A program made the translations under genes and the position numbers. 64,000 nt of DNA, from positions 448,001 through 512,000 of the forward strand of contig CAVQNG010000005.1 of assembly GCA_963713825.1 (NCBI GenBank), given 5' to 3'. Source of the DNA: an uncultured Acidobacteriota bacterium (GTDB taxonomy: Bacteria > Acidobacteriota > Thermoanaerobaculia > Multivoradales > JAHEKO01). The notes under the pieces were generated by a model, which saw nothing but the letters and a program-made list of their open reading frames with translations, made no database searches and had not been told where the DNA came from. Positions 32,295-64,000 of this stretch are shown here, piece by piece (the stretch's first letter is position 1; each line of letters starts with the position of its first letter).

Positions 32295-32322
32295 GGCTTT
32301 ACCTCCCACTCGAAACGGTGGT

Positions 32323-34675: not shown

Positions 34676-34690
34676 CCGCCCCCCTCCCTC

Positions 34691-35960: not shown

Positions 35961-36064
35961 GAAGAAAGAGCCGAGGCGCCACGGGGGCGACTCGGCTCGG
36001 AAATGGCGTCGGGGCTTAGGCGCCGAACGCGGATTGCGACGCCGGCCCCTCTTCCAGTCAATTC

Positions 36065-37762
36065 TTACAGTGCTTTCACTTTCACCAGTTCCTTGCCCTC
36101 GGCATCATGGGTATGAATCGCACAAGCCAGGCACGGGTCGAACGAGTGAATGGTGCGCACAACCTCGAGAGGTCTCTCGGGATCGGCCACCGGGTTGCCC
36201 ATGAGTGATGCCTCGTAGGGCCCCATCCTTCCCTTGGCGTCTCTCGGCCCGGCGTTCCAGGTCGAGGGCACGACACACTGGTAGTTCTCGATGACTCCGT
36301 CGCGAGCGACAACCCAGTGCGACAGCGTGCCGCGCGGAGCTTCGTGGAAGCCGAACCCTTTCTGCACGCCCTTGAACTCGGGCTTCCGCCAGATCTCCAC
36401 GTCTCCGCTGGCGATGTTGTTGGCCAGCAGACCCCAGTGCTTCAGGGCCAGATCCGACAGCACGACGCACCGAATGCACCGCGCCGCGTGCCGTCCGAGG
36501 GTCGAATGCAAGACCTTCGGGGTCAGCTTGACGCCCGCCATGTTGCCAGCCTGCTCTAGGACGTAGGTGCCGTACTTGGCAAAGAGCTCGTTGCCCGAGG
36601 CCAAGCCCATCAGCACCTGAGCCAGCGGACCCACCTGCATCGGCTCGTCCTGGAACCGAGGCGACTTCACCCAGGAGTAGTCCCCGTCGTCTTCCCATTC
36701 GCTGTACTTGGGAACGGTCTCCTCCTCCCAGGGGTGACGCTGCCAGTCACCGTCGTACCAGGAGTGAGCAATCCCTTCCTCGACGTTGTCGCGGAAGTAC
36801 TCGTCATTGAAGCTCGAGATCGGCTTGTACGAACCGAGATCAGCATTCATGATCGTGCCGCCCGGCAGGTCGAACTCTGTCCCCGCTTCGTCGAGCGGCA
36901 GATCTGGCACAGCCATGTAGTTCGTCACGCCCGCCCCGTATCCCAGCCACTCCGGATACATGGAGCCGATGGCGATGACGTCCGGTAGATAGACGTTCTT
37001 CACAAAGTCCTGAACCTCTGTCAGCAGCACCTTTGCCTGATACAGCTTCTTCATGTTCAACGTGGCTTCGTTGTCCATGTTGATGGCGTTGGCGACGCCT
37101 CCGACAGCCAGGTTCTGAATGTTGGGGGTCTTCGACCCCAGAATGGTCACCACCTGATTGGCCTTGCGCTGATACTCGAGGGCCTGCAGGTAGTGGCTTG
37201 CCGCCAGCAGGTTGACCTCGGGTGGCAGATGCATGGCTGGGTGACCCCAGTAGCCGTTGGCGAAGATCCCCAACTGCCCGCTGTCCACCACACCTTGCAG
37301 CCTCGCCTTGACCGCCGCGAGCTGCTTGGTGCTATTTCCAGGCCACTCCGAAATGCTCTCCGCTAGCTTGCTCGCCGCGGCCGGATCGGCTTTCAGAGCC
37401 GACACGATGTCGACCCAGTCGAGCGCCGACAGGTGGTAGAAGTGCACGATGTGATCGTGCAGCCCGTGGGCCGCCAAGATCACGTTGCGAATGTACTGGG
37501 CGTTGATGGGTACGGTCATACCCACCGCATTCTCCACCGCGCGCACCGAAGTGATGGCGTGCACGGTGGTGCACACCCCGCAAATGCGCTGGGTGAAGAG
37601 CCAGGCGTCCCGCGGGTCGCGGCCCTGGAGAATGACTTCGATCCCTCGCCACATCTGGCCCGAGGACCAGGAATTCTGCACCTTGCCGCCATCGACTTCG
37701 ACGTCGACGCGCAGGTGGCCCTCGATGCGAGTGATCGGGTCGACTGTGATCCGTCTACTCAT
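36065..37762 (-). CDS. hybC: [NiFe]-hydrogenase large subunit, group 1 (Hyb-type)
   Basis: DPITRIEGH, QRICGVCTTVH (L1), SFDPCLACAIH (L2) plus cleavable tail. Confidence 0.95.
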   Translation of the reverse strand: MSRRITVDPITRIEGHLRVDVEVDGGKVQNSWSSGQMWRGIEVILQGRDPRDAWLFTQRICGVCTTVHAITSVRAVENAVGMTVPINAQYIRNVILAAHGLHDHIVHFYHLSALDWVDIVSALKADPAAASKLAESISEWPGNSTKQLAAVKARLQGVVDSGQLGIFANGYWGHPAMHLPPEVNLLAASHYLQALEYQRKANQVVTILGSKTPNIQNLAVGGVANAINMDNEATLNMKKLYQAKVLLTEVQDFVKNVYLPDVIAIGSMYPEWLGYGAGVTNYMAVPDLPLDEAGTEFDLPGGTIMNADLGSYKPISSFNDEYFRDNVEEGIAHSWYDGDWQRHPWEEETVPKYSEWEDDGDYSWVKSPRFQDEPMQVGPLAQVLMGLASGNELFAKYGTYVLEQAGNMAGVKLTPKVLHSTLGRHAARCIRCVVLSDLALKHWGLLANNIASGDVEIWRKPEFKGVQKGFGFHEAPRGTLSHWVVARDGVIENYQCVVPSTWNAGPRDAKGRMGPYEASLMGNPVADPERPLEVVRTIHSFDPCLACAIHTHDAEGKELVKVKAL

Positions 37763-37774
37763 TCCAATGTCCTC

Positions 37775-38971
37775 CTAATGGGCTTCCGCTGTGGTGGATC
37801 GGCCAGCCAGGATCGGAAAGACCGTGACCAGTGCCACGTACAGCACGATTTCGATTGCAACGATTCCGATCGTGACGAACATCTCCGGCACGGTCGGGAA
37901 GTACGAGAAATTCTCGCCCGGCATGAAGGCCACCAGATACGTGTCGAACCGGTACATGGTTCCGGCGAGGACCAGCATCATGGCAGCGCGAAACAGATAG
38001 CCGAGATTCTGTCGTTTCTGGGCGTTCATCAGCATCACCGCAGGAACGGCGAAGCAGATGATCTCGAGCCAGAACATCAGAGAGAAGACGTTGAACTGAA
38101 ACATCAGGCCGAGCCGTCCGCGCAGTACCAGTTCCACCAGGCGCAGAGCCAGGTAGACCCAGATGATGTAGGCGGCTACCTTGCCGATGTTTGCCAACAT
38201 CGAGGTGTGGGACGGGCGCCCGAAGTAGCGACTCGCCAGCGCCGATTCCATCACCACCACCGCATAGCCCATGGCGATGCAGGAGATCAGGAATAGCAAC
38301 GGCACGAGCGGCGTGTTCCACAGGCCGTGCAGCCGTGGCCCCGACAGCAGCATCAGGCTGCCCAGGGACGACTGATGCATGGTCGGCAGCAGCACTCCCA
38401 GCGCGATGATCCAGATCAGCAGTTTGTTGACAATGCCGTAGGCTTTCTTCGAGAAGTTGGCCAGCCCCTCCTTGGGACTGTCCTTCCACTTCTCAAAAAA
38501 CGCCGGCGACAGCTCGATCCATAGAACGATGACGTAGGCCATCACACACAGCGCTACTTCGAGCAGGGCGGAGTTCCAGTTGTACTTGCCCATGTCGGGG
38601 AAGCCACCCAGCGGGATGCGCCAGATGAACCACGGCCGGCCCACATCGATGGCGATGGCCAGCCCCGCCATGGAGTAACCGAGGGCGCTGGTCAAGATCG
38701 CCGGACGAACCAGCGGATGGTACTTGCCCTTGTTGAAGATATAGACCAACAGGGCCATGGCGAAGCCGCCGCAACCCAGGGCCGTACCGGTGACGACGTC
38801 GAAGGCGATCCAGAGACCCCACGGATAACCGTCGGTGAGTCCTGTCGACCTGCCAAGACCGACGGCGAAGCGCCAGAGGATGAGGACAACACCGAGGATG
38901 CCGAGCCACAAGATCCACTTGTTGACTTTGCCGAAGGCCGGGCCACCTAGAGGTTGTGCTTGCTCGCTCAT
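37775..38971 (-). CDS. hybB: Hydrogenase-2 NrfD-type membrane subunit
   Basis: YPWGLWIAFDV, YHPLVRPA, PTMHQSSLG, MYRFDTY. Confidence 0.93.
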   Translation of the reverse strand: MSEQAQPLGGPAFGKVNKWILWLGILGVVLILWRFAVGLGRSTGLTDGYPWGLWIAFDVVTGTALGCGGFAMALLVYIFNKGKYHPLVRPAILTSALGYSMAGLAIAIDVGRPWFIWRIPLGGFPDMGKYNWNSALLEVALCVMAYVIVLWIELSPAFFEKWKDSPKEGLANFSKKAYGIVNKLLIWIIALGVLLPTMHQSSLGSLMLLSGPRLHGLWNTPLVPLLFLISCIAMGYAVVVMESALASRYFGRPSHTSMLANIGKVAAYIIWVYLALRLVELVLRGRLGLMFQFNVFSLMFWLEIICFAVPAVMLMNAQKRQNLGYLFRAAMMLVLAGTMYRFDTYLVAFMPGENFSYFPTVPEMFVTIGIVAIEIVLYVALVTVFPILAGRSTTAEAH

Positions 38972-39861
38972 GCCTCACCAGCCTCTTCTGCATCGCCATC
39001 CTTGCGACGATTGCGCCACATCACGACGCCCAGCATTGCGTAGAGCGCTGCTGGTGCGATGAAGCCCTGGTACACGCCGTGTTGGATGGTCTGCTGCATC
39101 TCGGGCACCGGCTCTTCGTCATCGAACCGGAAACCGAGCTTCTCGAACGGCACATGCGACAGGTAGAGCACCTGCGTGCCGCCCAGATCCTTCTCGCCGT
39201 AGATCTTGGGCTCATAGCGATCGGGGTACTCGGCGAGGCGCCGCTTGGCTTCTGCCAGAAGCTCATCGTAGGTACCGGCGATAACCGCCTCACGTGGGCA
39301 GACCTCGCAACATGCGGGCTCCCACTGTTTGTCCCCTGCTCGCTGCCGGCAGTACTCGCACTTGACGATGTAGGGGTTGAGGCTGGACCACTCGAACTGC
39401 GGAACGTTGAAGGGGCATGCCATCTGGCAATAGCGGCAGCCGATGCAGCGGTCCTTGTCCCAGGTGATCACACCGTACTTCTCTTTGCGGAAGGAGCCGA
39501 TCATGCAAGCCCCGACGCAGGCCGGGTCCACACACTGCATGCACTGGCGCTTGACGTAGGAACGCCGATCACCTTCCGAGTAGAGCTTGATGATGTTCTT
39601 GGTGTATTCGTTGAGATCGGTGGGAGCGTCGTAGTTCTCCATCCCTGGGGTCGTGGTGTCCGCCGGCAAGTCGTTGGCCTCTTTGCAGGCCCTCACGCAG
39701 GCTTTGCACCCGATGCACAGGGTGGTGTCGTAGAGCATGCCGCGAGCATCTTCCGGGACAACCTTGCGCTCGCGGGCAGCCTTGACAGGCGACGCGCTCG
39801 CCACCGCTGCGGCACTGGCGGTGGCCATGCCCTTGAGCAGGGAGCGTCGATCGAATGCCAT
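38968..39861 (-). CDS. hybA: Hydrogenase-2 ferredoxin subunit
   Basis: DRRSLLK Tat signal, CIGCKAC and further FeS motifs, GGTQVLYL, C-terminal TM. Confidence 0.92.
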   Translation of the reverse strand: MAFDRRSLLKGMATASAAAVASASPVKAARERKVVPEDARGMLYDTTLCIGCKACVRACKEANDLPADTTTPGMENYDAPTDLNEYTKNIIKLYSEGDRRSYVKRQCMQCVDPACVGACMIGSFRKEKYGVITWDKDRCIGCRYCQMACPFNVPQFEWSSLNPYIVKCEYCRQRAGDKQWEPACCEVCPREAVIAGTYDELLAEAKRRLAEYPDRYEPKIYGEKDLGGTQVLYLSHVPFEKLGFRFDDEEPVPEMQQTIQHGVYQGFIAPAALYAMLGVVMWRNRRKDGDAEEAGEA

Positions 39862-39863
39862 GG

Positions 39864-40991
39864 CTAGCTCTCCTCTTCTTCGGGCTCGTCACCGAGCTTC
39901 TTCGAGGCGGCGTAGCCGGCACCCAGCAGGCCTCCCGCCACGAGTCCGGCCACACCCGTTGCCACCGCTCCGACCTTGCCTTGTGGGGCGCCGATCGGCG
40001 GGTAGGTGTCGGGGTTGGTCGGACGCTCGATGTCCACCGTGTCGGTAATCGATGTCTGCCAGAGGACCTTCTGCTCCGTGCAGCCGACGCAGGGGTGTCC
40101 CAGCCCGATGGGCCAGGCATCGACGACCTCGCCAAACGCCTGAACCGAGCAGTTGGCGTGGGTCACAGGTCCTTTGCAGCCGAGCTTGTACAGGCAGTAG
40201 CCCTGGCGATGGTTCTCGTCGCCGTAGGCCTCTGCAAACCGCCCGGCGTCGAAGTGCGCCCGCCGCGGGCAGTGCTCGTGGATCGTCCGGCCGTAGGCCC
40301 ACTTGGGCCGAGCCAGCTCATCGAGCGCCGGAAGCGTGCCGAAGGTGGCGTACTGCAGAGCCGTTCCGAGGAAGTTGTAGGGGTTGGCCGGGCAACCGGG
40401 AATGGTCACGACGGTCTTGCCCTCGAGAATCATCGGTGCGCCGGTGGCGCCGGTCGGATTCGGTTCGGCTGACGGGATGCCGCCCCAGGATGCGCAAGAG
40501 CCAATCGCGATAATGGCCCCTGCCATCTCTGCAGCCTCGTTCAGGATGTCGACGGCCGTGCGGCCACCGATCATGCAGTAGATCCCATCGTCCTTCTCCG
40601 GGATTGCACCCTCGACCACCAGAATGAACTTGCCCTTGTGCGCCTCCATGGCGGCCATTCGGACCTCTTCGGCCAGATGACCCGAGGGCACCATGAGGGC
40701 CTCGTGGTAGTCCAGCGAGATCAGATCCAGGATCAGCTCGTCGAGGCCCGGGAAGCGCGTACGCAACAGGGTCTCTGTACAGCCGGTGCACTCCTGGAAC
40801 GACAACCAGATTACCGACGGCTTCTGACCTGCAATGGCGGCCTCCGCCATCTTCACACCGGCTCCTGCCGGCAATCCGACGGCCGCGGCCGCAATGCTGC
40901 AGATCTTCAAGAAGTCTCGGCGGTCCACGCCTCTGCCCAGCATCTCCTCGCTGGACACCCCTTTCACGACTCTTGGCAGCAACATATCCAC
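39864..40991 (-). CDS. hybO: [NiFe]-hydrogenase small subunit
   Basis: RRDFLK Tat signal, QECTGCTE, GSCASWGG, PGCP, HEHCPRR, CLYKLGCKGP, C-terminal TM. Confidence 0.95.
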   Translation of the reverse strand: MDMLLPRVVKGVSSEEMLGRGVDRRDFLKICSIAAAAVGLPAGAGVKMAEAAIAGQKPSVIWLSFQECTGCTETLLRTRFPGLDELILDLISLDYHEALMVPSGHLAEEVRMAAMEAHKGKFILVVEGAIPEKDDGIYCMIGGRTAVDILNEAAEMAGAIIAIGSCASWGGIPSAEPNPTGATGAPMILEGKTVVTIPGCPANPYNFLGTALQYATFGTLPALDELARPKWAYGRTIHEHCPRRAHFDAGRFAEAYGDENHRQGYCLYKLGCKGPVTHANCSVQAFGEVVDAWPIGLGHPCVGCTEQKVLWQTSITDTVDIERPTNPDTYPPIGAPQGKVGAVATGVAGLVAGGLLGAGYAASKKLGDEPEEEES

Positions 40992-53650: not shown

Positions 53651-55471
53651 ATGACGAACATCCTGGGGATTTCGGCGTTCTACCATGACTCCGCGGCCTG
53701 CCTCGTGCAGGACGGAGAGCTCGTGGCCGCTGCCCAGGAGGAGCGCTTCACCCGCAAGAAGCACGACCACCGATTTCCCGATTCAGCAGTGCGGTACTGC
53801 CTGCAGGAGGCTGGCATCACGGCCGATCAACTGGATGCCGTGGCCTTCTACGACAAGCCCTGGCTGAAGTTCGAGCGGTTGCTGGAGACCTACCTCTCCT
53901 TTGCACCGGCGGGCCTGCCTTCGTTCCTGAAGGCGATGCCGCTGTGGCTGAAGCAGAAGCTCTGGATGGGCGAGCTGATCCAGAAACAGGTCGGCTTCGA
54001 GGGCGACTTGCTCTACCCCGAGCACCATCAATCCCACGCTGCCTCGGCCTTCTATCCCTCGCCGTATCAGCGGGCAGCGATCTTGACCATCGATGGTGTC
54101 GGCGAATGGGCCACCGCATCCTGGGGTGTAGGCCATGACCACAATGTAGACATCCGCTGCGAGCTGATGTTTCCTCACAGCCTCGGATTGCTCTATTCGG
54201 CCTTCACCTACTACACCGGTTTCCGAGTCAACTCGGGTGAGTACAAAGTGATGGGCCTCGCCCCGTACGGCGAGCCGAAGTACGTCGACCTGATCCTCGA
54301 CAATGTGATGGACCTGCGCGAGGACGGCTCCTTCTGGCTGGACATGGACTACTTCAACTACTGCCAGGGTCTGACGATGACCTCGGAGAAGTTCCATCGG
54401 CTTTTCGGGGGCCCGCCGCGGGCTCCGGAGTCGGAGCTGACGCAGAAGGAGATGGACCTGGCCCGCTCGGTCCAGGAGGTCACTGAAGAAGCCATGTTGC
54501 GCATGGCCCGGCATGTGAAGAAAGAGACCGGCGAGAAGTACCTCTGTCTGGCCGGCGGCTGTGCCCTCAACTGCGTGGCCAACGGCAAGATCCTGCGCTC
54601 CGGCATCTTCGAGGACATCTTTATCCAGCCGGCTGCTGGAGATGCCGGCGGAGCGCTCGGAGCGGCCCTCTTCACCTGGCACCAGGTGATGCAGAAACCT
54701 CGAACGGCAGCCGGAGATCGTGACTCCCAGAAGGGTTCCTACTTGGGGCCGGCGTTCGAGTCCAAGACGATCGAGACGTGGCTCGAACGGGAGGAGATCC
54801 CCTACGAGCGACATGAGCCCGAGGCAATCCCAGGCCTGGTCGCCGACATCATCGACGACGAGAAGGTCGTTGGCTTCTTCGCGGGCCGAATGGAATTCGG
54901 TCCCCGAGCCCTGGGTGGGCGCAGCATTATCGGCGATGCCCGCTCGACCAAGATGCAGTCGATCATGAACCTGAAGATCAAGTACCGGGAGTCCTTCCGG
55001 CCTTTCGCGCCCTCCTGTCTCGTCGAGGATGTCTCGGAGCTCTTCGAGCTCGACCGTCCCTCGCCCTACATGCTCCTCGTGGCGGACGTCCAGAAGAGTC
55101 GGCGCAAGGCGATGACCGAGGAGCAGAAGAGCTTCTTCGGCATCGAGAAGCTGAATGTGCCCCGCTCGGACATACCGGCGATCACCCATATCGACTACTC
55201 TGCCCGTGTGCAATCGGTCGATGGTGTCAACAACCGGCCCTACTACGACACGATTCGAGCTTTCAAGGAGAAGACCGGCTACGGGGTGGTCGTCAACACG
55301 TCGTTCAATGTGCGCGGGGAGCCCATCGTCTGCACGCCGCAGGATGCGTTTCTCTGCTTTATGCGCACTGAGATGGACGTGCTGGTGCTCGAGAACCTCG
55401 TCCTCTACAAGACACAGCAAAAGGAGCTCGAAGGCGACGAGGACTGGCGGGAGCAGTATGACCTGGACTGA
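53651..55471 (+). CDS. O-carbamoyltransferase (NodU/CmcH/SxtI family)
   Basis: YHDSAA..QEERFTRKKH, EHHQSHAAS, EYKVMGLAPYG, EFGPRALG, RESFRPFAP, NTSFNVRGEP. Confidence 0.95.
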   Translation: MTNILGISAFYHDSAACLVQDGELVAAAQEERFTRKKHDHRFPDSAVRYCLQEAGITADQLDAVAFYDKPWLKFERLLETYLSFAPAGLPSFLKAMPLWLKQKLWMGELIQKQVGFEGDLLYPEHHQSHAASAFYPSPYQRAAILTIDGVGEWATASWGVGHDHNVDIRCELMFPHSLGLLYSAFTYYTGFRVNSGEYKVMGLAPYGEPKYVDLILDNVMDLREDGSFWLDMDYFNYCQGLTMTSEKFHRLFGGPPRAPESELTQKEMDLARSVQEVTEEAMLRMARHVKKETGEKYLCLAGGCALNCVANGKILRSGIFEDIFIQPAAGDAGGALGAALFTWHQVMQKPRTAAGDRDSQKGSYLGPAFESKTIETWLEREEIPYERHEPEAIPGLVADIIDDEKVVGFFAGRMEFGPRALGGRSIIGDARSTKMQSIMNLKIKYRESFRPFAPSCLVEDVSELFELDRPSPYMLLVADVQKSRRKAMTEEQKSFFGIEKLNVPRSDIPAITHIDYSARVQSVDGVNNRPYYDTIRAFKEKTGYGVVVNTSFNVRGEPIVCTPQDAFLCFMRTEMDVLVLENLVLYKTQQKELEGDEDWREQYDLD

Positions 55472-55483
55472 TCGTTGGGAATG

Positions 55484-55526
55484 CGGTGACAGGCACCTCA
55501 TTTCTGAAATGAGGTGCCTGTCACCG
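55484..55526. repeat. Long palindrome CGGTGACAGGCACCTCATTTC-T-GAAATGAGGTGCCTGTCACCG (REP-doublet-like)
   Basis: 21-bp arms read directly from the sequence. Confidence 0.8.
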
Positions 55527-55543
55527 AAAAAAGGAAGAGGCTG

Positions 55544-55945
55544 ATGAGCGAGCACGCAGCCAAGACCGTCAAAGAGCTCCGGAAGTTCGGCTTCGCATTC
55601 ACGGGCGGTCTGACGCTTCTCGGTAGCCTGCTCCTCTGGCGGGGCAAGGCGCCGGGTCCCTATGTCCTGGGAGCGGCCGCTGTGGTCCTAACCCTGGCTC
55701 TGCTGGCACCTGCCGCGCTTCGACCGCTGGAAAAGACGCTCGCCACGATCTTCCGGTGGGTCACGGCTGCCCTGACTTACGTGATCCTGGTTGTGACCTA
55801 CTATCTGGTGGTGACCCCGATGGGGATCATCATGCGACTTCTGGGCAAGGATCCCCTGCATTTGAAGCGAGAGCCGAATCGACCATCCTTCTGGGTATCG
55901 GTAGAGGAGGATGGGCCGGCGTCGCGGCCGGACAAGCCGTACTAG
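55544..55945 (+). CDS. SxtJ-family membrane protein
   Basis: KELRKFG, YYLVVTPMG..GKDPL..SFW; follows the carbamoyltransferase. Confidence 0.85.
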   Translation: MSEHAAKTVKELRKFGFAFTGGLTLLGSLLLWRGKAPGPYVLGAAAVVLTLALLAPAALRPLEKTLATIFRWVTAALTYVILVVTYYLVVTPMGIIMRLLGKDPLHLKREPNRPSFWVSVEEDGPASRPDKPY

Positions 55946-56152
55946 AGGGTCGAGGCGGCCGTCATGCTTCCGGCCGATCTTTGAGGGCTTGGGGGTTGAA
56001 GAGGCCGTCGCTTGCTCCGGCCGGGTCTTTGGGGCGATGGGGCAGAGAAGTACTGAAGCGACCGGCGTCTCTGCCGGCCGGGGTGTGTGGGGGAGGGGAA
56101 GGTTCTTCTATAATCGAGATCTGATTAGTGGCTTTGAAGGGATAGGCAGCTC

Positions 56153-56311
56153 ATGGCATCGAATTCCAAGATCGGCACCATCTGGGGCTTTCTCAAGACC
56201 CGCAAGAAGTGGTGGCTGACGCCCATCATTCTCACTCTGGTCCTGCTGGCGGCCCTGATCGTGCTGACCGAGTCCTCGGCGGTCGCGCCGTTCATCTACG
56301 CGTTGTTTTAG
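56153..56311 (+). CDS. DUF5989 / SxtK-like 52-aa peptide, absent from the ORF track
   Basis: MASNSKIGTIWGFLKTRKKWWLTPII..SAVAPFIYALF. Confidence 0.88.
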   Translation: MASNSKIGTIWGFLKTRKKWWLTPIILTLVLLAALIVLTESSAVAPFIYALF

Positions 56312-56753
56312 GCGCGGGCTCGTACCTCGCCCACGCAGGGTAATGAGGGCTTGGGGTTGAGGAGTCCGGCGTTCCTTCGGGCAATCCTTGAGGCAGTGGG
56401 GCACTGAGGGCTTGGGGGTTGAGGCGCTCGGCGAGTGCGCCGAGCGGTCTTTGGGGGCTTGGGGGAAGACGGATTCAATACCCCTCGGCCCTTACGCCCC
56501 TAAGCCCATCTGAATCGGCCGCCCCTACAGAGTAGACGCGTTTGAAGCGGCCGGACCTGTGCCGGCCGGGGAGCCCCAAGCCCCAGAACCCAAGCCCCCA
56601 TTGCCTCAAAGGTCGGCCGGAGCAAGCGACGGACGATTCAACCCCCAAGCCCTCAAAGAATCGGCCTACACGAAGTGTGGCCGCCTCAACCCCCAGGCCC
56701 TCAAAGACCAGCCGAAGGTACGCCGGCTGGCTCAACCCTCTGTTCACATTCCC

Positions 56754-57145: not shown

Positions 57146-58081
57146 ATGAGATTTCATGGGAAGTTGCTGTTCCTGGTGGCATCAGCTGTCCTGTTGGTCG
57201 CGGCGGTAGCGACGGCGGGCGACGTACCGACGGCGGACAACGCCTACATCGGTAGCGAAGCCTGCCTGGACTGCCATGAAGTGGCTGACTTGGGGCTCAT
57301 GGAGCACGACGTGCACATGCAGATCCAATCTTTCGAAGTGCAGGGCCGCGAGGTCGGCTGCGAGGGCTGTCATGGCCCTGGCAAGCTGCATATGGAGGAG
57401 AGCGATCCGGAATTGATTCGCACCTTTGCTGATGATGCGGACTACTCCCAAGAAGTGTGCATGAACTGCCACGCCACCAAGAACCTGCCGGAATGGGATG
57501 CCTCGATCCACGCACTCGAGGCCGTCCAGTGCACTGATTGTCACGGGGTGCACAAGAGGACGTTCAAGCCCAATGAAGCGTGCACAGCCTGCCACGCGGA
57601 TGCGAGGGCCGCTTTCGAGCTGCCGTCGCACCATCCGCTACGCGAGGGCAAGATGGAATGCTCTAGCTGTCACGACCCACACTCTGCCACCGAGTTCATG
57701 CTCAAGACGCGCATGCGCAAGGCCGATCTTTGCTACACCTGTCATCAGGACAAAGAAGGCCCGTTCATCTTCGAGCATCCCCCGGTGCAAGAGGACTGCA
57801 ATCTCTGCCACACGCCGCACGGCTCCGTGGCCGACAACCTGCTCACCGCCAATGAGCCGACGTTGTGCTTGCAGTGCCATGACTTCCACTTTCACACCGG
57901 ATACCGCGCCTCCGACAGCCTCGAAGTGGACGTTGGAGGAATCGAGCGAGAGAACCCGTTCGGTCCCGAGGGCTTCCAGATTGCCTACTCGACCAATTGC
58001 ACGCAGTGCCATGCCCGGGTCCACGGATCCGACACCCCGTCGCAGACGCCGACGAACTACGGCAAGGGCCTGACCCAGTAA
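57146..58081 (+). CDS. DmsE/MtrA-family decaheme cytochrome c
   Basis: Signal peptide; 10 CxxCH motifs; PSHHPLREGKM, GPFIFEHPPV, VHGSD motifs. Confidence 0.93.
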   Translation: MRFHGKLLFLVASAVLLVAAVATAGDVPTADNAYIGSEACLDCHEVADLGLMEHDVHMQIQSFEVQGREVGCEGCHGPGKLHMEESDPELIRTFADDADYSQEVCMNCHATKNLPEWDASIHALEAVQCTDCHGVHKRTFKPNEACTACHADARAAFELPSHHPLREGKMECSSCHDPHSATEFMLKTRMRKADLCYTCHQDKEGPFIFEHPPVQEDCNLCHTPHGSVADNLLTANEPTLCLQCHDFHFHTGYRASDSLEVDVGGIERENPFGPEGFQIAYSTNCTQCHARVHGSDTPSQTPTNYGKGLTQ

Positions 58082-58093
58082 AGGAGGAGAGAG

Positions 58094-60259
58094 ATGAAAA
58101 CAACCTATCGACTCCTACTGGTAGCTCTGGTAGTGGCAACGGTCCCGGCGGCGACGATGGCGGCTATCGGTGACGGTGGCACCATCATTGTCGAGCGGAC
58201 TTTCTGGCTTGGATACTGGGACTCCAGCGTCGACGGATCTCCGGATCTCGCCGCCGAGTACCGAGTGATCGGTGACGGCCCCGACCTGGGCGTCAAGCTG
58301 AAGACCATCCACGAGTGGGGCGCAGTCGACTTCTACGGCCGGTATCGCGATTCGGCAGACCAGAAGTACAAACTGGACTTCGACGTCAATCGCGTGTTCC
58401 GTTCACAGAATTTGCTCAATTCGCTCATCCATCGGCTCGGACATCAGCCGATCGAGCACTTCCAGGCGGCGACCAATCATGGCCGTGTGGTGTGGGAGAG
58501 CGACCTCGATCCAGATTCGGAATACGACCTCAAGTACCAGGTCTTCGAGACCAAAAACGAGGTTCAGTTGCCGAGCGTCGACGGCCTTACGGTCGGTTTC
58601 GGCTATCGCAACCAGCAGCGTAAGGGGACGCGTCAGCACACGACGATTTCTCACTGCGATGCTTGTCATGTGAACAGTCAGGACCGGCCGACCGACGAGA
58701 CCACGGACGACGCCTATATCGATCTGAAATACGCCTGGGCTTCGAACTTCGTTCGCGGCAGCTACACCGGGCGCAGCTATAGTGAGAGCCCACAGAACAT
58801 CTCGCTACTGTTCGATGACGCGCTGCAACCGGAATTGAGAACCCCGGTTTTCGACAATCGTGTCCAGTGGGATGTCGACGAAGGCCCGCAGCCCGTGGAC
58901 CTGAAGCCGGACATCTCGAAGGACATCTTCAAACTCGACACCCTGATCAATACCAGCGGTTGGGGCATCGTCGGCGAAGGCGTCTGGTCTTCGACCGAGA
59001 ACGACTACACACGCAACAAGACCGATTTCACCGGTTTCATGGCGAGTGTGGCCAAGCGTTTCGGCTCGGATCGGCGCTGGAACTTCCGCTGGCGGGGTCG
59101 TACCTACTCGGTTGACAATTCCACGGTGGAGTTGGTTCCGATCCAGCGGCCAGGTACGGCTGGACCGCAGTCACCGGGGACCTATGGTTCCTACTACCCC
59201 GATTGGCCGCAGACATTCACCCGACTGCCGGCAGTGAAACGGGACGTCCTCGAGTCGAAGGCCGATCTCGTCTTCGGTAGGTCCACTCGCGGTATCGGAC
59301 AGTTCCGGTTCACCTGGAACTACGACAAGCAGGATCGTGAGTACTACGAAGTGGCCCCGGGAACGACCGACACCACGAAGAACCTGCTCGGTGTGTCCTG
59401 GTCGGCACGACCTGGGAAGGGTTGGAAGACGTATGCCGGCATCAAGTACGCCGACATCAGCAATCCCTTTCAGATCGTTGATGGCAAGTACTCGACGCTG
59501 GTCTCACAACCGTCCGGAGGCAGCCCCTTCGACCCGCGTGCGGCCCAGTACTGGCAGATGCACAACGCTCGCATCGCCGAAGGAACGACGTCGCCAGCGT
59601 CCTACTTCCAGGCTGACTTGCGTGGCACCTACCTGCACGACGGCAACATGCTGACGGCTTCGTACCGCTACTGGAAGGGTGACAACAATGACGGTGATCT
59701 GAATGACTGGGCGCGGGATTCCCAGGCCTTCAACATCACCTACTGGGCGACACCCTCGCCGGATTGGCAGTGGTACGTCGGTTACAACTACAACGACACC
59801 TCGATGGACACGGTGTTCACCATCCCGATCTTCGATGGGTGAGCGGGCTCCATTGTTTCGGGCCAGGCTGGCTCGGATTCGAGCACGACCAAGTACACAT
59901 CCACCGTCAACACCGGGATGGGTGGCCTGAAGTTCAAGGTCACAGAAGCATTCAAGATTGGTTTCGACCTGGCATACGTCGATGCCACGGCTGGAATGGA
60001 CTCATTCCGATTCGAAACCGCTGAAGCATGGGCGGCTACCAAGCCGAACCAGAACTACGACATGTCGCTGGTCAACACCTATTCGGATCTCGACACCTCG
60101 CGATTCGAGTCGGACCTGTGGGCCAAGTTCGGCTTCGGGAAGTCTCTCTTCCTGTATGGCGACTGGCGGTATGTCGACTATGCCGACGACGCGCCGTATC
60201 TCTACGACACGTCCGGCGAGATCAGCTGGTACACGCTCAGCCTAGGCTGGTCGTTCTGA
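58094..60259 (+). CDS. Outer-membrane porin partner of the decaheme cytochrome, CxxCH-containing putative selenoprotein (721 aa, Sec583; GSU2204/MtrB-like)
   Basis: ORFs 58094-59842 and 59918-60259 share a frame and are separated only by TGA at 59840; SECIS-like hairpin follows; joined protein ends in the barrel signal SLGWSF; CDACH motif. Confidence 0.85.
59840..59884 (+). promoter_or_regulatory. UGA plus bacterial SECIS-like hairpin
   Basis: TGA, 14 nt, stem TTCGGGCCA / TGGCTCGGA with GGC loop starting 23 nt after the UGA; lower GCTC/GAGC pairing. Confidence 0.75.
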
Positions 60260-60296: not shown

Positions 60297-60332
60297 GACC
60301 CCGCCCTTCATTGGGCGGGGTCGTTTTTGTTT
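60297..60332 (+). terminator. Rho-independent terminator
   Basis: GACCCCGCCC-loop-GGGCGGGGTC then T tract after the porin gene. Confidence 0.85.
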
Positions 60333-60533
60333 CAGGCCGGCGGAACTTCCGGCCCTTGATTGTCCTGGGGCTTGGGTCCTGGGTCGTGAAGGGTTGAAGC
60401 GGCCGTCGCCCCTGGCGGCCAGGGTGGGTGGGGGAACCGGATTTGCGGCGTCCGGCCACGGGTGATTGAATCGGCCGTCGCCTCTGTCGGCCGGGGTGGG
60501 CGGTGGTGTAGGGGAGGGCCTTGCGCCCTCCCG

Positions 60534-62114
60534 CTATGGTGCCAGCCAAGCGAGCGGTCGAATCTGCCCCAGATCCTGCTCCGCGGCCATCCTCTCCAAC
60601 ATCTCATGATCCACTTGGTACAACCTCCAGAACCCCTCTCTCGTGACCGGAACCAACGCTGGGACCAGCGCAACATTTTCGTGGTTCTCTGCGCTTCCGT
60701 TGGCCAAGACCACATCGAACCAGGCCAGATCGCTCAGCTTCAGGTTCCACGGCTCCCATTCGAGGTTGTGGGTCCAGGCGTGGCTGTAGGTTTCCTTGAA
60801 CACCACCGGCATCGGGGCGAAGTTGGCGAAGGAGAAGGCGAGCGTCCCGCCGCCGCGCACCTGGGCGTAGGCAGGGAGCTGCAGAAAGGGCAGCCGCTTG
60901 ATCACCTGGCTTCGTTGCTGCGTCTCGATGCCGAGAACTCGTGACTGCGGCGGTACCTGCTCCAGCGCCTGCTCGAAGCCCGAGAGCTCGTGACGCTCGT
61001 AGAAGCTCCAGAGGATGGCCAGCATCGCGACGAACAGAAGGGCGACGGCTGAGGTCCCGATTCGGGCGAGCGAGGGCTTGATTCTCGGTGCCGGTGCGGC
61101 CAGGACCAGCAGCACCAGCGCCGGTGCCGTCCACCGTTGCGCGAATTCGGTCGTCTGGTGGTAGAGATTGGGGAGCGCCAGTGCTGCGAGGAACAGCATC
61201 GATCCTGCGAGCGCGAGGGCCCCGTCACCCTCTTCTCGGAGGCTCTTGCGGTTCTGGACCAGCCCCACCGCGACCCATAACAGGATCAGTCCGAGCATAA
61301 CGATTTCCGTGGGGCCTCTGACCCCACCGAAGCCCGTGTTCACCAACCAGCTCGGATTCAGTCGTTGCCAAGGCATGGGAGCCCAGTCCACCGGAGACGT
61401 GAACTGCAGCTTCTCCAGGTTTCCGTACCAGAGGGCTGCAAGGACCAGTACTGGGGCCACAGCCGCGAATCGCCTCAGGCGTCGCTTCCGAAGAGGCAAG
61501 CGAGCCGCCACATCGTGGACCACCAACCAGATGAACCCGGCCACCAGCCAAAGGGCGTGGCTGAAATAGAGCAGCAGGAATCCCAGCAGCAGTTTCCACT
61601 CGGAGCGCTTTTCGGCCGGCTGGGTCGTCAGGTGGATCCACAAGAGAAACACCGGCAACCCGACTACGAAGGGAGCGAACCCCCAGTACATCGAGAGGCT
61701 GAAGAAGAAGAGGGATGCCAAGACCGCCGACGAGATGCTCCGCCCGCGGCTGGCCGCCAGCGCGTGGATCCCACCTGCCCAGGCCATTCCGAACAGCGCC
61801 ATCCCGATCAGGCCGACCTTCATCGGCTCCACGAGCTTCCAGAGAGCCCCGAACACCAGATAGGCGATCCAGTAGGGCGTCAGCCACTGGACGCGATAGA
61901 CCGAATCGGGATTCCCGAGGGTCTCGAAGAACAACCGCACCTGCGCCACATGCTGCGGCAAGTCCGCCGATGGAGGAACATCCACCGCCAGAAACGGCAC
62001 CACCATCAGTCCCATCGCCAGCAGCGCAAACCACAGCCTCGCTGAGTTCAGCTGCGCCCGAAGCGGCCGGCGCCCCTGCCGGCCGGGGTGTGCGCGGGAT
62101 TGGTCAGGTCCCAT
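60534..62114 (-). CDS. Polytopic membrane protein, possibly GT-C glycosyltransferase-like (start uncertain)
   Basis: DLPQH early loop, about 10 TM segments, soluble C-terminal domain; the first ~25 codons overlap a repeat. Confidence 0.6.
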   Translation of the reverse strand: MGPDQSRAHPGRQGRRPLRAQLNSARLWFALLAMGLMVVPFLAVDVPPSADLPQHVAQVRLFFETLGNPDSVYRVQWLTPYWIAYLVFGALWKLVEPMKVGLIGMALFGMAWAGGIHALAASRGRSISSAVLASLFFFSLSMYWGFAPFVVGLPVFLLWIHLTTQPAEKRSEWKLLLGFLLLYFSHALWLVAGFIWLVVHDVAARLPLRKRRLRRFAAVAPVLVLAALWYGNLEKLQFTSPVDWAPMPWQRLNPSWLVNTGFGGVRGPTEIVMLGLILLWVAVGLVQNRKSLREEGDGALALAGSMLFLAALALPNLYHQTTEFAQRWTAPALVLLVLAAPAPRIKPSLARIGTSAVALLFVAMLAILWSFYERHELSGFEQALEQVPPQSRVLGIETQQRSQVIKRLPFLQLPAYAQVRGGGTLAFSFANFAPMPVVFKETYSHAWTHNLEWEPWNLKLSDLAWFDVVLANGSAENHENVALVPALVPVTREGFWRLYQVDHEMLERMAAEQDLGQIRPLAWLAP

Positions 62115-62443
62115 GTCGCGACTCTGGCGTATGCAGTCCGTGCTGGGTGGGGGATGTAGGGGCGGGGCTTGTCCCCGCCCGCGGACGCCCCTGCCGGCCG
62201 TTTGTCACTTTGGCCTGTGAGATGTCCTTTTTGGGTGCTAAGTGGTGTTTTTTGGACGGTGAGCTGTCATTGTTTGCTGCAGCGGCCGGCGCCCCTGCCG
62301 GCCGGGGAGTGTGGGGGTGCCCGGATCCGTGCCGGCCTTCCAACGACGAACTCGAATTGTCAGCTCCCATGCCGCCCCGACTCTAGCGCATGGCGGTTGG
62401 GTTGGGAGGGGGATGTAGGGGCGGGGCTTGCCCCCGCCCGCTG

Positions 62444-62863
62444 TCATGCATCTGCCGGCAGGATCCGAAACGGCTTCCCGCCAGCACCTCTCAGCGCCCG
62501 GAAGTGCCTGTGATCGAGCGTCAAGAGGTCGAGGACGTTTTGCTTCTCCGACAACACGACGATCGATGCATCGGCCAAGCCGATCCCCAGATCGGAGTAC
62601 TGCTCGATGATCTCTCTAGCACGCTTGATGTCTGCGAGTTCGAAGGGAGCAAGATCATAGGCCCCACGCTCGACTTCTCGAAGAAGAGTGAGCTCTTTGG
62701 GGATACCCGCGAGCTTGGTAACCAGGTAGTCCAGCTCGGCGAGAACGAAGGGAGACAGAAACAAGAGTCCTTTGTTCTTGGTGAGAACCTTGGCGCAGTC
62801 TTTATGGCTGCGTTGGTCAGGAGATAGGGCGGCGAGCAATCCGCAGGAGTCGACCAGCATCAT
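62444..62863 (-). CDS. vapC: PIN-domain toxin
   Basis: LVDS, VLAELDYL, LGLADAS-like GLADASI, LTLDHRHF. Confidence 0.88.
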   Translation of the reverse strand: MMLVDSCGLLAALSPDQRSHKDCAKVLTKNKGLLFLSPFVLAELDYLVTKLAGIPKELTLLREVERGAYDLAPFELADIKRAREIIEQYSDLGIGLADASIVVLSEKQNVLDLLTLDHRHFRALRGAGGKPFRILPADA

Positions 62864-63096
62864 GACTCGCCGAAGCCCTCGAGCAGCTCGTCCACGCGTT
62901 CTGCGGCAGTAGGATCGCCCAGGCCTTCCGAGAACAGTGGAATCGTGGGCTTGGGCCTTGGGCGTTGGTCGACAGCTCGCTGAATCGCAGCACGAATGAT
63001 CTCCGCTTCGGAGCGCTTCTCCTCGGCGGCCATCTTCTCGAGATCTGCCTTCAGAGCTTCAGGGAGGTAAACCGTCGTCTTGATCATGCCATACAT
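62860..63096 (-). CDS. vapB: Ribbon-helix-helix (CopG-like) antitoxin
   Basis: KTTVYLPE..SEAEIIRAAI; overlaps the vapC start. Confidence 0.85.
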   Translation of the reverse strand: MYGMIKTTVYLPEALKADLEKMAAEEKRSEAEIIRAAIQRAVDQRPRPKPTIPLFSEGLGDPTAAERVDELLEGFGES

Positions 63097-63448
63097 TATG
63101 CCATACCTCGAAAGTCATTGATTCCGTTGCTATTTGTCAGCCATCACTGGTAGAGATGACGGGAAGTCGATGGAGGTTCTTGCAGACCATCTTGTGCAGG
63201 GCGGAACGTAGAGGAGGGGCTTGCCCCCTCCCACGGGCGCCCGCAAGGGGCGCCCCTACATTTGGCCGTCATGGATGGGAATGGGCGGGGAATGTAGGGG
63301 AGGGCCTTGCGCCCTCCCGGGGTGCCCCCTTGTGATCCCATTCCTTCGGGTGGGTCCGGATCCTGCCCTTTTAGGGCTTGGGTCCAGGGGGTCGGCCGGA
63401 TACCATAGGCGCGGCCTCGGAGTCGAGGCCGTCTCTAGGAGGATTCCA

Positions 63449-64000
63449 ATGACTCGAATTCGCATTCCCATGGCCTTTCTGGCCCTCCTCGTTGCCCTGA
63501 CGGCAGTGCCTGCAATGGGTGACGAGATCGACAAGCCCTACCGAATGGAGATCGGCGACCCGGCTCGCAAGACCCAGAAGGCCGACCTCGTCCTGGACGC
63601 CATCACCGACACTCGCACGGGTGAGCTTCTGAGCCCCGCACAGCTGGCCGACAGGCTGGCCGACAAGCGCATCGTGTTCATGGGCGAGAGCCACACCGAC
63701 ATCTTCTTTCACCGCTCCCAGTTCCAGATCATCGAGGCCCTGCAGAACGCCGGCCGCGAGGTCCTGATCGGCCTCGAGATGTACCCCTACACCAAGCAGG
63801 AGTTGCTGGATAACTGGGTGGCCGGCCGCTACACCGAAGAGGGCTTCCTCGAGATCTCGCAGTGGTACGAGGCCTGGGGCTACCACTGGGACTACTACCG
63901 CTCCATCTTCATGTTCGCGCAGGAGCACGGCCTCCCCATGTACGCCCTCAATACTCCGCGCGAGATCATCGCGGCAGTCCGCAAGAAGGGCTTCGACGAG
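63449..64000 (+). CDS. ChaN-family protein (truncated by window end)
   Basis: AGGAGG RBS, signal peptide, IVFMGESH, IGLEMYP, YYRSIF..ALNTPR; frame open to the window end. Confidence 0.85.
   Translation, partial: MTRIRIPMAFLALLVALTAVPAMGDEIDKPYRMEIGDPARKTQKADLVLDAITDTRTGELLSPAQLADRLADKRIVFMGESHTDIFFHRSQFQIIEALQNAGREVLIGLEMYPYTKQELLDNWVAGRYTEEGFLEISQWYEAWGYHWDYYRSIFMFAQEHGLPMYALNTPREIIAAVRKKGFDE

What the first reader, a model, noticed from the sequence alone, without database searches (positions are those of the whole stretch)
57146..60259. Porin-cytochrome conduit whose porin is a hidden heme-motif selenoprotein (UGA read-through with SECIS)
Seen: the porin ORF stops at IPIFDG-TGA (59840), but the frame stays open (AGSIVSGQAGSDSSTTKYTSTVNTGMGG..) for 138 more codons to SLGWSF, a typical beta-barrel terminus. 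The apparent second ORF has no signal peptide. A 9-bp stem with a G-initiated loop starts 14 nt after the UGA, and the protein has a CDACH motif. Known: bacterial SECIS hairpins sit immediately 3' of UGA with a loop G; MtrA/MtrB pairs move electrons across the outer membrane; Sec-containing porins have been noted in Geobacter-type organisms (ExtI, GSU2204 family, from recollection). Inference: a 721-aa barrel holding heme plus Sec that acts catalytically on extracellular S0/polysulfide or Se species, using electrons from the decaheme and ultimately H2. No MtrC-like outer cytochrome is encoded here.
Basis: partly seen in the sequence, partly recalled or inferred. Interest (0 to 1): 0.85.

Follow-up and report, generated by a model that had tools for sequence, protein, structure and literature searches.

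The report
Selenocysteine-containing outer-membrane porin with decaheme partner
The apparent stop inside this outer-membrane porin gene is almost certainly a selenocysteine codon, making it a new acidobacterial member of an already catalogued but never studied family of heme-motif selenoprotein porins that pair with a ten-heme cytochrome.

Summary
ORF 58094-59842 ends at TGA 59840-59842 and the frame stays open for 138 codons to 60259. The same in-frame TGA sits at the same place (FDG-U-A/G) in 15 of 15 related loci from other Acidobacteriota genomes, at 30-88% identity. Three full-length homologues carry Cys there. A hairpin 14 nt downstream meets all four published bacterial SECIS constraints and shows compensatory changes. 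Read through, the 721-aa protein models as one MtrB-like barrel (pLDDT 90.6; best PDB match 6r2q_B).

It is not a new kind. The porin scores above cutoff for NCBIfam NF041027, "GSU2204 family CXXCH-containing (seleno)protein". The cytochrome scores above cutoff for NF041028, "GSU2203 family decaheme". Two reviews already list the family as a selenoprotein.

Unverified: Sec machinery in this genome (none in the window), heme attachment, and any role in sulfur, selenium or H2 chemistry. New here: Sec583 and the invariant CXXCH both sit at the tips of two unusually long beta-hairpins, inferred to face outward.

The parts
57146..58081 (+). Decaheme c-type cytochrome, 311 aa, with an N-terminal signal-like leader and ten CXXCH motifs. 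It is an MtrA/DmsE homologue of the GSU2203 (OmcK) family.
   Evidence: NF041028 345.5 bits (cutoff 325) and TIGR03508 DmsE-family decaheme 226.8 bits (cutoff 192.2). Chain 6r2q_A of the Mtr complex matches at E 1.3e-40. All ten CXXCH motifs are invariant in 13 orthologues. The gene lies directly upstream of the porin in 13 of 15 related loci.
58094..60259 (+). Full-length outer-membrane beta-barrel gene, 721 codons plus stop, read through the TGA at codon 583. GSU2204 (OmcL) family, MtrB-like fold.
   Evidence: NF041027 451.4 bits (cutoff 350) over residues 11-582, profile 2-580 of 580. AF2 model pLDDT 90.6, pTM 0.82, with strands running straight through position 583. Foldseek best hit 6r2q_B, E 5.4e-22, TM 0.68/0.75. 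The frame is conserved in 15 of 15 loci.
58655..58669 (+). Codons for C188-D-A-C191-H192, the c-type heme-attachment motif inside the barrel protein.
   Evidence: C188, C191 and H192 are present in 67 of 67 homologues that cover these columns. In the model the motif sits at the turn between the long strands 165-186 and 191-215.
59840..59842 (+). In-frame TGA, read as selenocysteine 583.
   Evidence: TGA is at the homologous codon in 15 of 15 loci. Cys aligns here in P0022, P0029 and P0141. Of 153 homologues, 78 end exactly here. TGA is otherwise the commonest true stop in the window, ending 21 of 34 Pfam-supported genes.
59857..59877 (+). bSECIS-type hairpin: 9-bp stem, apical loop GGC, loop starting 23 nt after the UGA.
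   Evidence: -11.2 kcal/mol. It meets the four constraints of the bacterial SECIS model quoted in PMC13188914 section 5. 90.4% of cells are paired and 5 pairs have changes on both sides. RNAalifold recovers 8 of the 9 pairs.
60297..60332 (+). Intrinsic terminator after the second (real) TGA stop: 10-bp stem with 9 GC pairs, then a T-run.
   Evidence: No terminator-like site follows the first TGA.

Best explanation
Genes 57146-58081 and 58094-60259 form a two-gene operon for an MtrAB-type (OmcK/OmcL-type) electron conduit across the outer membrane. The first gene encodes a periplasmic ten-heme cytochrome that threads into the barrel. The second encodes a 721-aa, roughly 26-strand MtrB-like barrel.

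The barrel gene is not split. UGA-583 is decoded as selenocysteine, directed by a SECIS hairpin that begins 14 nt downstream. The gene is therefore a new acidobacterial (Thermoanaerobaculia-like) member of the known GSU2204 family of CXXCH-containing selenoproteins.

Shown here: the conserved UGA, the Cys-containing homologues, the covarying hairpin, family membership, the MtrA and MtrB homology, and the absence of a conserved third gene.

Inferred: the invariant CXXCH carries a covalent heme. It and Sec583 sit at the tips of two unusually long beta-hairpins on the outward face. With the well-conserved long loops they would form the conduit's own terminal redox site, doing the job that a separate surface cytochrome (MtrC) does in Shewanella. 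The direction of electron flow (out to minerals or chalcogens, or in from a donor as in PioAB/MtoAB or interspecies transfer) is open.
For: Recoding:
- TGA at the same codon, with the frame kept, in 15 of 15 loci at 30-88% identity.
- 78 of 153 database homologues end at this very position. Only 5 span it, and 3 of those 5 have Cys there.
- Coding-type GC3 continues after the TGA.
- The hairpin meets the bSECIS constraints and covaries.
- TGA is the normal stop for 21 of 34 other genes, so the code is not reassigned genome-wide.

Family: NF041027 and NF041028 both score above their curated cutoffs. The family is listed as a selenoprotein in PMC13188914 and PMC9312934.

Conduit:
- The decaheme matches 6r2q_A at 1.3e-40 and the barrel model matches 6r2q_B at 5.4e-22, with the next hit at 1.7e-07.
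- The pair is adjacent in 13 of 15 loci and no other neighbour is conserved.
- Homologues of G. sulfurreducens OmcK/OmcL are described as a porin:cytochrome conduit in syntrophic sulfate reducers (passages of PMC10553843). GSU2203 and GSU2204 rise 2.7- and 2.4-fold on hematite (table in PMC4070692).

Redox site:
- CXXCH is present in 67 of 67 homologues.
- The protein has no Cys other than C188, C191 and U583.
- Sec583 lies at the turn between strands 558-583 and 586-615, and CXXCH at the turn between 165-186 and 191-215.
- 19 of the 45 most conserved positions lie in the long loops and 1 in the short turns.

Sec use in the lineage: a related Thermoanaerobaculia locus (L011) encodes a Sec-type SelD.
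Against: - No selA, selB, selD or tRNA-Sec in the 64-kb window, and no tRNA-Sec in the 15 loci. The rest of this genome could not be searched.
- No Rfam hit, although I know of no Rfam model for bacterial SECIS elements (recalled, not checked).
- The 81-nt region around the UGA folds no better than shuffles (z -0.52). Only the core hairpin stands out.
- The Pfam MtrB_PioB match is below its gathering score (20 against 23 bits), and a profile of the family finds no PDB chain by sequence.
- Two distant full-length homologues (P0133, P0097) keep the CXXCH but have no Cys at the turn, so the Sec/Cys is not indispensable to every barrel of this kind.
- The outward orientation rests on counting DSSP strands from the two termini, not on coordinates. 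For the CXXCH it depends on treating the 6-residue strand 132-137 as part of a loop.
- Heme attachment to a barrel protein is unproven.
- The structure was modelled with Cys in place of Sec.
Confidence: 0.8

Rival explanations
1. The TGA at 59840 is a real stop. The cell makes a 582-aa truncated barrel and, separately, a 113-aa protein from the ATG at 59918 (a split or degenerate porin), or the TGA is a sequencing error.
For: Under table 11 the gene calls this way, and most database entries are called this way: 78 N-terminal and 14 C-terminal pieces among 153. Sec machinery was not seen in the window.
Against: - 15 of 15 independent genomes keep TGA, never TAA or TAG, and never shift the frame; the one indel in the hairpin alignment is 3 nt.
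- The 25 codons between the TGA and the ATG are conserved as protein and keep a high GC3 of 0.80.
- Cys replaces the stop in 3 full-length homologues.
- The second ORF has no signal peptide.
- The barrel closes only with the C-terminal strands and ends in the usual ...GWSF.
- The terminator follows the second stop only.
Confidence: 0.03
2. One reading: the Sec-heme barrel is a surface enzyme that reduces extracellular S0, polysulfide or selenium species with electrons that come, via the decaheme, ultimately from H2.
For: - The window holds a NiFe hydrogenase with NrfD/FeS partners, hyp genes, a molybdopterin oxidoreductase with an FeS-NrfD subunit, DsrE, DsrC, a rhodanese fusion and an SQR-like flavoprotein.
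- A lone Sec beside a heme motif suits chalcogen chemistry. His/Cys-ligated hemes of sulfur enzymes such as TsdA and SoxA are a precedent (recalled, not checked here).
Against: - None of these genes is in the operon. The nearest, the hydrogenase, is 16 kb away on the other strand with a transposase-like gene between.
- None is conserved beside the pair in the other loci, though one (L013) has hypF nearby.
- The only expression data found link the Geobacter homologues to iron oxides and to interspecies electron transfer, not to sulfur or selenium.
- No substrate evidence of any kind.
Confidence: 0.12
3. Sec583 is real but is not part of an electron-exit site. It serves folding, assembly or regulation: a transient selenenyl-sulfide with a periplasmic partner or with the CXXC pair during barrel assembly, or a way to tie conduit synthesis to selenium supply. 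On this reading the CXXCH acts as a CXXC redox or structural motif like the N-terminal CXXC of Shewanella MtrB.
For: - Shewanella MtrB needs a CXXC motif (recalled, not checked).
- Some family members carry an extra Cys six residues before the Sec, in L009, L010, L012 and L015.
- Two distant homologues do without Cys or Sec.
Against: - The His of CXXCH is invariant, 67 of 67, which a plain CXXC role does not require.
- The Sec form heavily outnumbers the Cys form. This points to a need for selenium chemistry rather than a disulfide role that Cys could serve.
- The extra Cys is absent from the window protein.
Confidence: 0.1

Closest known systems
GSU2204 family CXXCH-containing (seleno)protein (NCBIfam NF041027; OmcL of Geobacter sulfurreducens) with the GSU2203 family decaheme (NF041028; OmcK)
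   Same: Both HMMs score above their curated cutoffs. The model ends exactly at the residue before the UGA. The CXXCH motif, the gene order (decaheme then barrel) and the lack of a third cytochrome gene all match. The family is already listed as a selenoprotein.
   Different: The host is an acidobacterium (best relatives are Thermoanaerobaculia MAGs at 79-88% identity), not a Geobacter or sulfate reducer. Identity to the more distant homologues found is 20-30%. The paper on the OmcKL conduit calls OmcK extracellular and never mentions selenocysteine (0 occurrences). Here the cytochrome is clearly MtrA-like.
MtrAB core of the MtrCAB complex of Shewanella (PDB 6r2q)
   Same: The decaheme matches chain A by sequence (E 1.3e-40). 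The barrel model matches chain B by fold (E 5.4e-22, TM 0.68/0.75). The expected mechanism is the same: a heme wire insulated inside a large barrel.
   Different: The barrels share 13% identity and the Pfam MtrB_PioB score is below threshold. There is no MtrC partner. The barrel here carries its own CXXCH and a Sec, which I recall MtrB lacks; its CXXC is N-terminal and has no His (not checked here).
PioAB / MtoAB two-component conduits of Fe(II) oxidisers
   Same: They have two genes only, a decaheme plus an MtrB-like barrel, with no surface cytochrome (recalled). This shows that the missing MtrC is not in itself unusual and that inward electron flow is possible.
   Different: Not compared by sequence here. 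As far as I recall they are not selenoproteins and have no CXXCH in the barrel.
ExtHIJKL cluster of G. sulfurreducens (ExtI porin, ExtKL Sec-cytochrome)
   Same: It is a Geobacter outer-membrane cluster that also contains a predicted selenoprotein and is linked to selenite and tellurite reduction (passages of PMC5877670).
   Different: There the predicted selenoprotein is the cytochrome ExtKL (NF040886 in the table seen), not the porin. ExtI is a 45-kDa porin with no Sec reported.

Membership tests
GSU2204 family CXXCH-containing (seleno)protein (NF041027) | HMM score at or above the curated cutoff | tested here: met
   451.4 bits against a cutoff of 350; residues 11-582 on profile 2-580 of 580.
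GSU2204 family CXXCH-containing (seleno)protein (NF041027) | CXXCH motif in the barrel protein | tested here: met
   C188-D-A-C191-H192; present in 67 of 67 homologues.
GSU2204 family CXXCH-containing (seleno)protein (NF041027) | In-frame UGA at the end of 'part 1', followed by a conserved C-terminal part | tested here: met
   TGA at codon 583 directly after the last profile position. The C-terminal 138 aa are conserved in 15 of 15 loci.
GSU2204 family CXXCH-containing (seleno)protein (NF041027) | Adjacent GSU2203-family decaheme cytochrome | tested here: met
   NF041028 345.5 bits against a cutoff of 325. The gene ends 12 nt before the porin ATG.
Bacterial selenoprotein gene | Homologues with Cys aligned to the UGA | tested here: met
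   P0022, P0029 and P0141 have Cys there. 2 of the 5 spanning sequences have no Cys.
Bacterial selenoprotein gene | bSECIS: 3-9 nt apical loop, 4-16 bp stem, G in the first two loop positions, 16-37 nt from the UGA, MFE at or below -7.5 kcal/mol | tested here: met
   Loop GGC (3 nt), 9 bp, 23 nt spacing, -11.2 kcal/mol. Conserved with compensatory changes.
Bacterial selenoprotein gene | selA, selB, selC and selD in the same genome | not testable with these tools
   None in the window. A related MAG locus (L011) has a Sec-type SelD.
Bacterial selenoprotein gene | Selenium actually incorporated (75Se labelling or mass spectrometry) | not testable with these tools
   Needs an experiment. No such experiment on this family was found in searches.
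MtrB/PioB outer-membrane barrel (Pfam PF11854) | Pfam HMM at or above the gathering score | tested here: not met
   20 bits against 23, and only residues 152-237.
MtrB/PioB outer-membrane barrel (Pfam PF11854) | MtrB-like large barrel fold with an MtrA-type decaheme partner | tested here: met
   6r2q_B at E 5.4e-22, TM 0.68/0.75. The partner matches 6r2q_A at 1.3e-40 and TIGR03508 above its cutoff.
MtrCAB three-component conduit | Surface decaheme lipoprotein (MtrC/OmcA type) encoded with the pair | tested here: not met
   No cytochrome gene flanks the pair in the window. No conserved third gene within 10 kb in the related loci.
c-type cytochrome (heme covalently bound to the barrel) | Heme c attached at CXXCH | not testable with these tools
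   Only the motif and its invariance are shown.

The most novel reading that the evidence does not exclude
The barrel is itself a redox enzyme and not a passive sheath. It would carry a covalently bound heme on one long outward hairpin and a selenocysteine on another, brought together over the mouth of the barrel above the last heme of the decaheme. There the selenolate ligates, or sits next to, the heme iron, as a selenium analogue of the His/Cys hemes of sulfur-oxidising cytochromes. This would be a cell-surface heme-selenium centre built into a beta-barrel. It would replace MtrC and handle extracellular chalcogen, mineral or partner-cell electron exchange.
Probability: 0.2. Interest if true: 0.8.

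Novelty: new member of a known kind. Interest (0 to 1): 0.4.

Why it matters
Standard gene calling splits this gene, so most database entries for the family are truncated: 78 of 153 homologues stop at the UGA. The extracellular-electron-transfer paper that I read treats the OmcKL conduit without mentioning selenium. The selenoproteome reviews list the family only in tables, without a function.

An outer-membrane beta-barrel that carries both a heme motif and a selenocysteine would be unusual biochemistry: Sec and heme have to be put in place and the barrel then folded by BAM. Its spread to Thermoanaerobaculia and Vicinamibacteria suggests that selenium-dependent electron conduits matter in soil and sediment Acidobacteriota.

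In practice, annotation of these genomes should join the two ORFs, and predictions of electron-transfer capacity should take selenium availability into account.

Tried and rejected
- Rfam at gathering thresholds over the whole window: 0 matches.
- tRNA scans of the window and of the 15 loci: no tRNA-Sec.
- NCBIfam on the C-terminal 138 and 113 aa alone: no family, so no 'part 2' model is in the library.
- A profile of the barrel family against PDB sequences: only a chance-level OprC hit at E 0.38. The link to MtrB appears by fold only.
- A 34-sequence alignment was too diverse for the locus search (error). A 7-sequence alignment worked, but its single pattern reached Acidobacteriota only. The taxonomic range seen in the loci is therefore biased.
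- The word-index protein search gave only 4 hits, all truncated at 572-582 aa.
- Looking up source names for the Cys-type homologues failed because the cluster database was off. Their organisms are unknown.
- A complex prediction of barrel plus decaheme was not run. The tool does not accept read-through sequences and I did not send a trimmed version. Binding rests on homology to MtrAB only.
- Sec-to-heme distance: no coordinates of the model are given out.
- The 2008 paper that the review cites for this family has no 'cytochrome', 'heme' or 'outer membrane' in its main text. Its supplements, and those of PMC10553843, are closed and may hold the relevant tables.
- Haft & Tolstoy 2025 is not held.
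- Genome-wide TGA recoding is rejected, because TGA ends 21 of 34 confident genes.
Full report
**1. The observation**

ORF 58094..59842 (+) ends with ...IPIFDG followed by TGA at 59840-59842. Read with TGA as a residue, the frame continues for 138 codons to ...SLGWSF and a second TGA at 60257-60259, giving 721 aa with the recoded position at 583. The heme-type motif C-D-A-C-H is at residues 188-192. Together with position 583 these are the only Cys-type residues in the protein. The nominal downstream ORF (59918..60259) has no leader peptide. A 9-bp hairpin with loop GGC lies at 59857-59877, starting 14 nt after the TGA.

**2. Is the TGA a selenocysteine codon?**

Five lines of evidence agree.

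(a) A scan of one genome per species found 15 related loci, all from Acidobacteriota MAGs (Thermoanaerobaculia, Vicinamibacteria, Thermoanaerobaculum), at 30-88% protein identity. All 15 have TGA at the homologous codon, in the context P-[IVL]-[FM]-[DE]-G-U-[AG]-[AG], and in all the frame continues into a conserved C-terminal part.

(b) An exhaustive profile-free search gave 299 homologues at E <= 0.001, of which 150 were listed. I re-scored those 150 plus three. Of the 153, 78 end at their own C-terminus exactly at query position 578-583. Another 14 are C-terminal pieces only, and 56 are fragments or alignments that stop earlier. Only 5 span the site. Of those 5, three (P0022, P0029, P0141) have Cys aligned with the TGA (…EG-C-GGGIIGG…). 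Two distant ones (P0133, P0097; 20-23% identity) have no Cys there.

(c) The hairpin meets the four constraints of the bacterial SECIS model as quoted in section 5 of PMC13188914: loop 3 nt beginning with GG, stem 9 bp, 23 nt between UGA and loop, and -11.2 kcal/mol. Over 15 distinct sequences 90.4% of the cells are paired, and 5 of 9 pairs show changes on both sides. 0 of 500 column shuffles reach the covariation score, and sliding the partner by one column drops pairing to 51.9%. RNAalifold recovers 8 of the 9 pairs. The wider 81-nt stretch is not unusually stable (z -0.52), and part of the nucleotide conservation also serves the conserved peptide S/G-G-Q-x-G.

(d) The extension keeps the coding signature: GC3 is 0.775, against 0.758 upstream and a flat 0.67-0.68 in the following intergenic DNA.

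(e) TGA is the ordinary stop of 21 of 34 Pfam-supported genes in the window, including this gene's own end, so a reassigned genetic code is excluded. A strong intrinsic terminator follows the second stop only.

A sequencing error, a split gene or a pseudogene cannot explain a TGA kept in 16 independent assemblies.

**3. What the two proteins are**

The barrel scores 451.4 bits (cutoff 350) on NCBIfam NF041027, "GSU2204 family CXXCH-containing (seleno)protein". The profile ends exactly at residue 582. The upstream gene (57146-58081) scores 345.5 bits (cutoff 325) on NF041028, "GSU2203 family decaheme c-type cytochrome", and 226.8 bits (cutoff 192.2) on the DmsE-family decaheme model. It has ten CXXCH motifs, all invariant in 13 orthologues. 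It matches chain A of PDB entry 6r2q, "Structure of the Mtr complex", at E 1.3e-40. That this chain is MtrA is my recollection; the sequence file mislabels it.

The barrel has only a sub-threshold Pfam MtrB_PioB match (20 against 23 bits) and no PDB relative by sequence. Its AlphaFold2 model was built from a 79-row alignment with Cys standing in for Sec. It is confident (mean pLDDT 90.6, pTM 0.82). Its best structural match by far is MtrB, 6r2q_B (E 5.4e-22, TM 0.68/0.75; next hit 1.7e-07, TM 0.25). The beta-strands run without interruption through position 583, and the last strand ends in the usual aromatic terminus. The barrel therefore needs the read-through part to close.

**4. Gene neighbourhood**

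The decaheme lies directly upstream in 13 of 15 loci. Of the other two, L015 begins inside the porin gene. L011 holds only the C-terminal 409 residues of the porin, with one extra in-frame TGA. All-against-all comparison of ORFs within 10 kb finds no other gene conserved next to the pair beyond close relatives. NCBIfam names for 74 neighbouring ORFs show unrelated functions. So the unit is a two-gene module without an MtrC-like surface cytochrome.

In the window the pair stands alone between REP-like repeat DNA and its own terminator. The NiFe hydrogenase (36065-40991), the hyp genes and the sulfur genes (molybdopterin oxidoreductase 11470-14379, DsrE, DsrC, rhodanese fusion) are 16-45 kb away, mostly on the other strand.

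**5. Where the special residues sit**

In the model Sec583 is at the two-residue turn between two very long strands (558-583 and 586-615). The CXXCH is at the four-residue turn between two other long strands (165-186 and 191-215). Their neighbours are 14-17 residues long.

Counting strands back from the C-terminus, which in outer-membrane barrels ends on the periplasmic side (general knowledge), puts the 584-585 turn on the outer face after five well-defined strands. The same parity puts the CXXCH turn outside, if the 6-residue strand 132-137 belongs to a loop. That choice also gives the usual pattern of 2-7-residue periplasmic turns and 28-46-residue outer loops, and 26 strands as in MtrB. 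This is an inference from the secondary-structure string.

The putative outer loops are at least as conserved as the strands (mean 0.576 against 0.541; short turns 0.474). They hold 19 of the 45 most conserved positions, against 1 in the short turns. That is unusual for surface loops and suggests a functional face. CXXCH is present in 67 of 67 homologues, G582 in 67 of 68, and His113 and His117 of an H-R-L-x-H-D-P loop motif in 61 and 54 of 67.

**6. Most likely mechanism**

By homology with MtrAB, the decaheme is inserted into the barrel and wires the periplasm to the cell surface (inferred; a complex prediction could not be run). Three facts fit a role in which the barrel supplies the terminal redox site itself:
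- no surface cytochrome is encoded;
- the barrel carries an invariant heme-attachment motif and a lone Sec on protruding hairpins;
- the Sec form vastly outnumbers the Cys form.

Whether Sec ligates the heme, reacts with a substrate or binds a metal is open, and so is the direction of electron flow.

The literature found gives little. GSU2203 (OmcK) and GSU2204 rise 2.7- and 2.4-fold with hematite (table in PMC4070692). Homologues of OmcK and OmcL are proposed as a porin:cytochrome conduit for interspecies electron uptake in sulfate-reducing partners of methanotrophic archaea (passages of PMC10553843). That paper contains the word selenocysteine nowhere.

**7. Comparison with what is known, and novelty**

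The family is known as a predicted selenoprotein. [quoted passage not shown] The main text of that survey does not mention it, and its supplements are closed.

My searches were GSU2204; GSU2203/OmcK; OmcL+OmcK; NF041027; selenoprotein+MtrB; and selenocysteine+porin-cytochrome. They found no experimental work on the Sec, the heme or the function.

The predicted selenoprotein of that cluster is the cytochrome ExtKL.

The window therefore holds a new, acidobacterial member of a known kind.

**8. Sec machinery**

None is in the window, and the genome could not be searched further. One related locus is informative. In L011 the gene directly upstream of the porin remnant is selD with an in-frame TGA at the catalytic Cys position (…S-C-A-G-U-A-S-K…). 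Reading it through extends the SelD profile match from positions 32-309 to 1-309 and raises the score from 334 to 363 bits. A 7-bp hairpin with loop GUC lies 33 nt after that UGA. So at least one Thermoanaerobaculia relative is equipped for, and itself depends on, Sec decoding.

**9. Verdict**

Interest is moderate: it is a well-supported but already catalogued selenoprotein family. Its biochemistry is wholly untested, and the hairpin-tip placement of Sec and CXXCH gives a concrete structural hypothesis to test.

Noticed in passing
L011:8943-11212: In a related Thermoanaerobaculia MAG, a Sec-type selD (in-frame TGA at 8994-8996, at the catalytic Cys position, with a SECIS-like hairpin 33 nt downstream) abuts a remnant of the Sec-porin gene. 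The remnant holds only residues 313-721, keeps the Sec TGA and has one extra in-frame TGA. There is no decaheme gene. It is either a rearrangement scar or a mis-assembly.
   Followed up: partly
window 55944-56741 and 60394-63330: The intergenic DNA on both sides of the operon is filled with short GC-rich palindromic repeats of REP type, in several families with 2-5 copies each. In L001 a REP-associated tyrosine transposase gene (12335-12784) sits right after the porin gene. Window ORF 34970-36061 has an IS200-like Y1 transposase domain.
   Followed up: no
window 31107-32369 and 32323-33480 (-): Two tandem genes each fuse a response-regulator receiver domain to a glycine-cleavage-H (lipoyl-carrier-like) domain, next to a HAMP histidine kinase (33137-34903). 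This domain pairing is uncommon.
   Followed up: no
window 11470-48229: A sulfur and hydrogen metabolism island. It holds a molybdopterin oxidoreductase with an FeS-NrfD fusion subunit, DsrE, a rhodanese-metallo-beta-lactamase fusion, DsrC and an SQR-like flavoprotein. It also holds two FadL-like outer-membrane proteins, a c3/c7-type cytochrome with FeS and NrfD subunits, a NiFe hydrogenase with its own FeS and NrfD subunits, and hypF/C/D/E.
   Followed up: partly
window 53651-56311: A carbamoyltransferase (NodU-like), an SxtJ-like small membrane protein and DUF5989 lie upstream of the operon. The carbamoyltransferase-sized ORF (606 aa) is in the same place in the close relatives L001 and L003.
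   Followed up: no
window 62444-63096 (-) and 63221-64000 (+): A PIN-domain / ribbon-helix-helix toxin-antitoxin pair, followed by a ChaN-like heme-binding (Cofac_haem_bdg) protein that runs off the window end.
   Followed up: no
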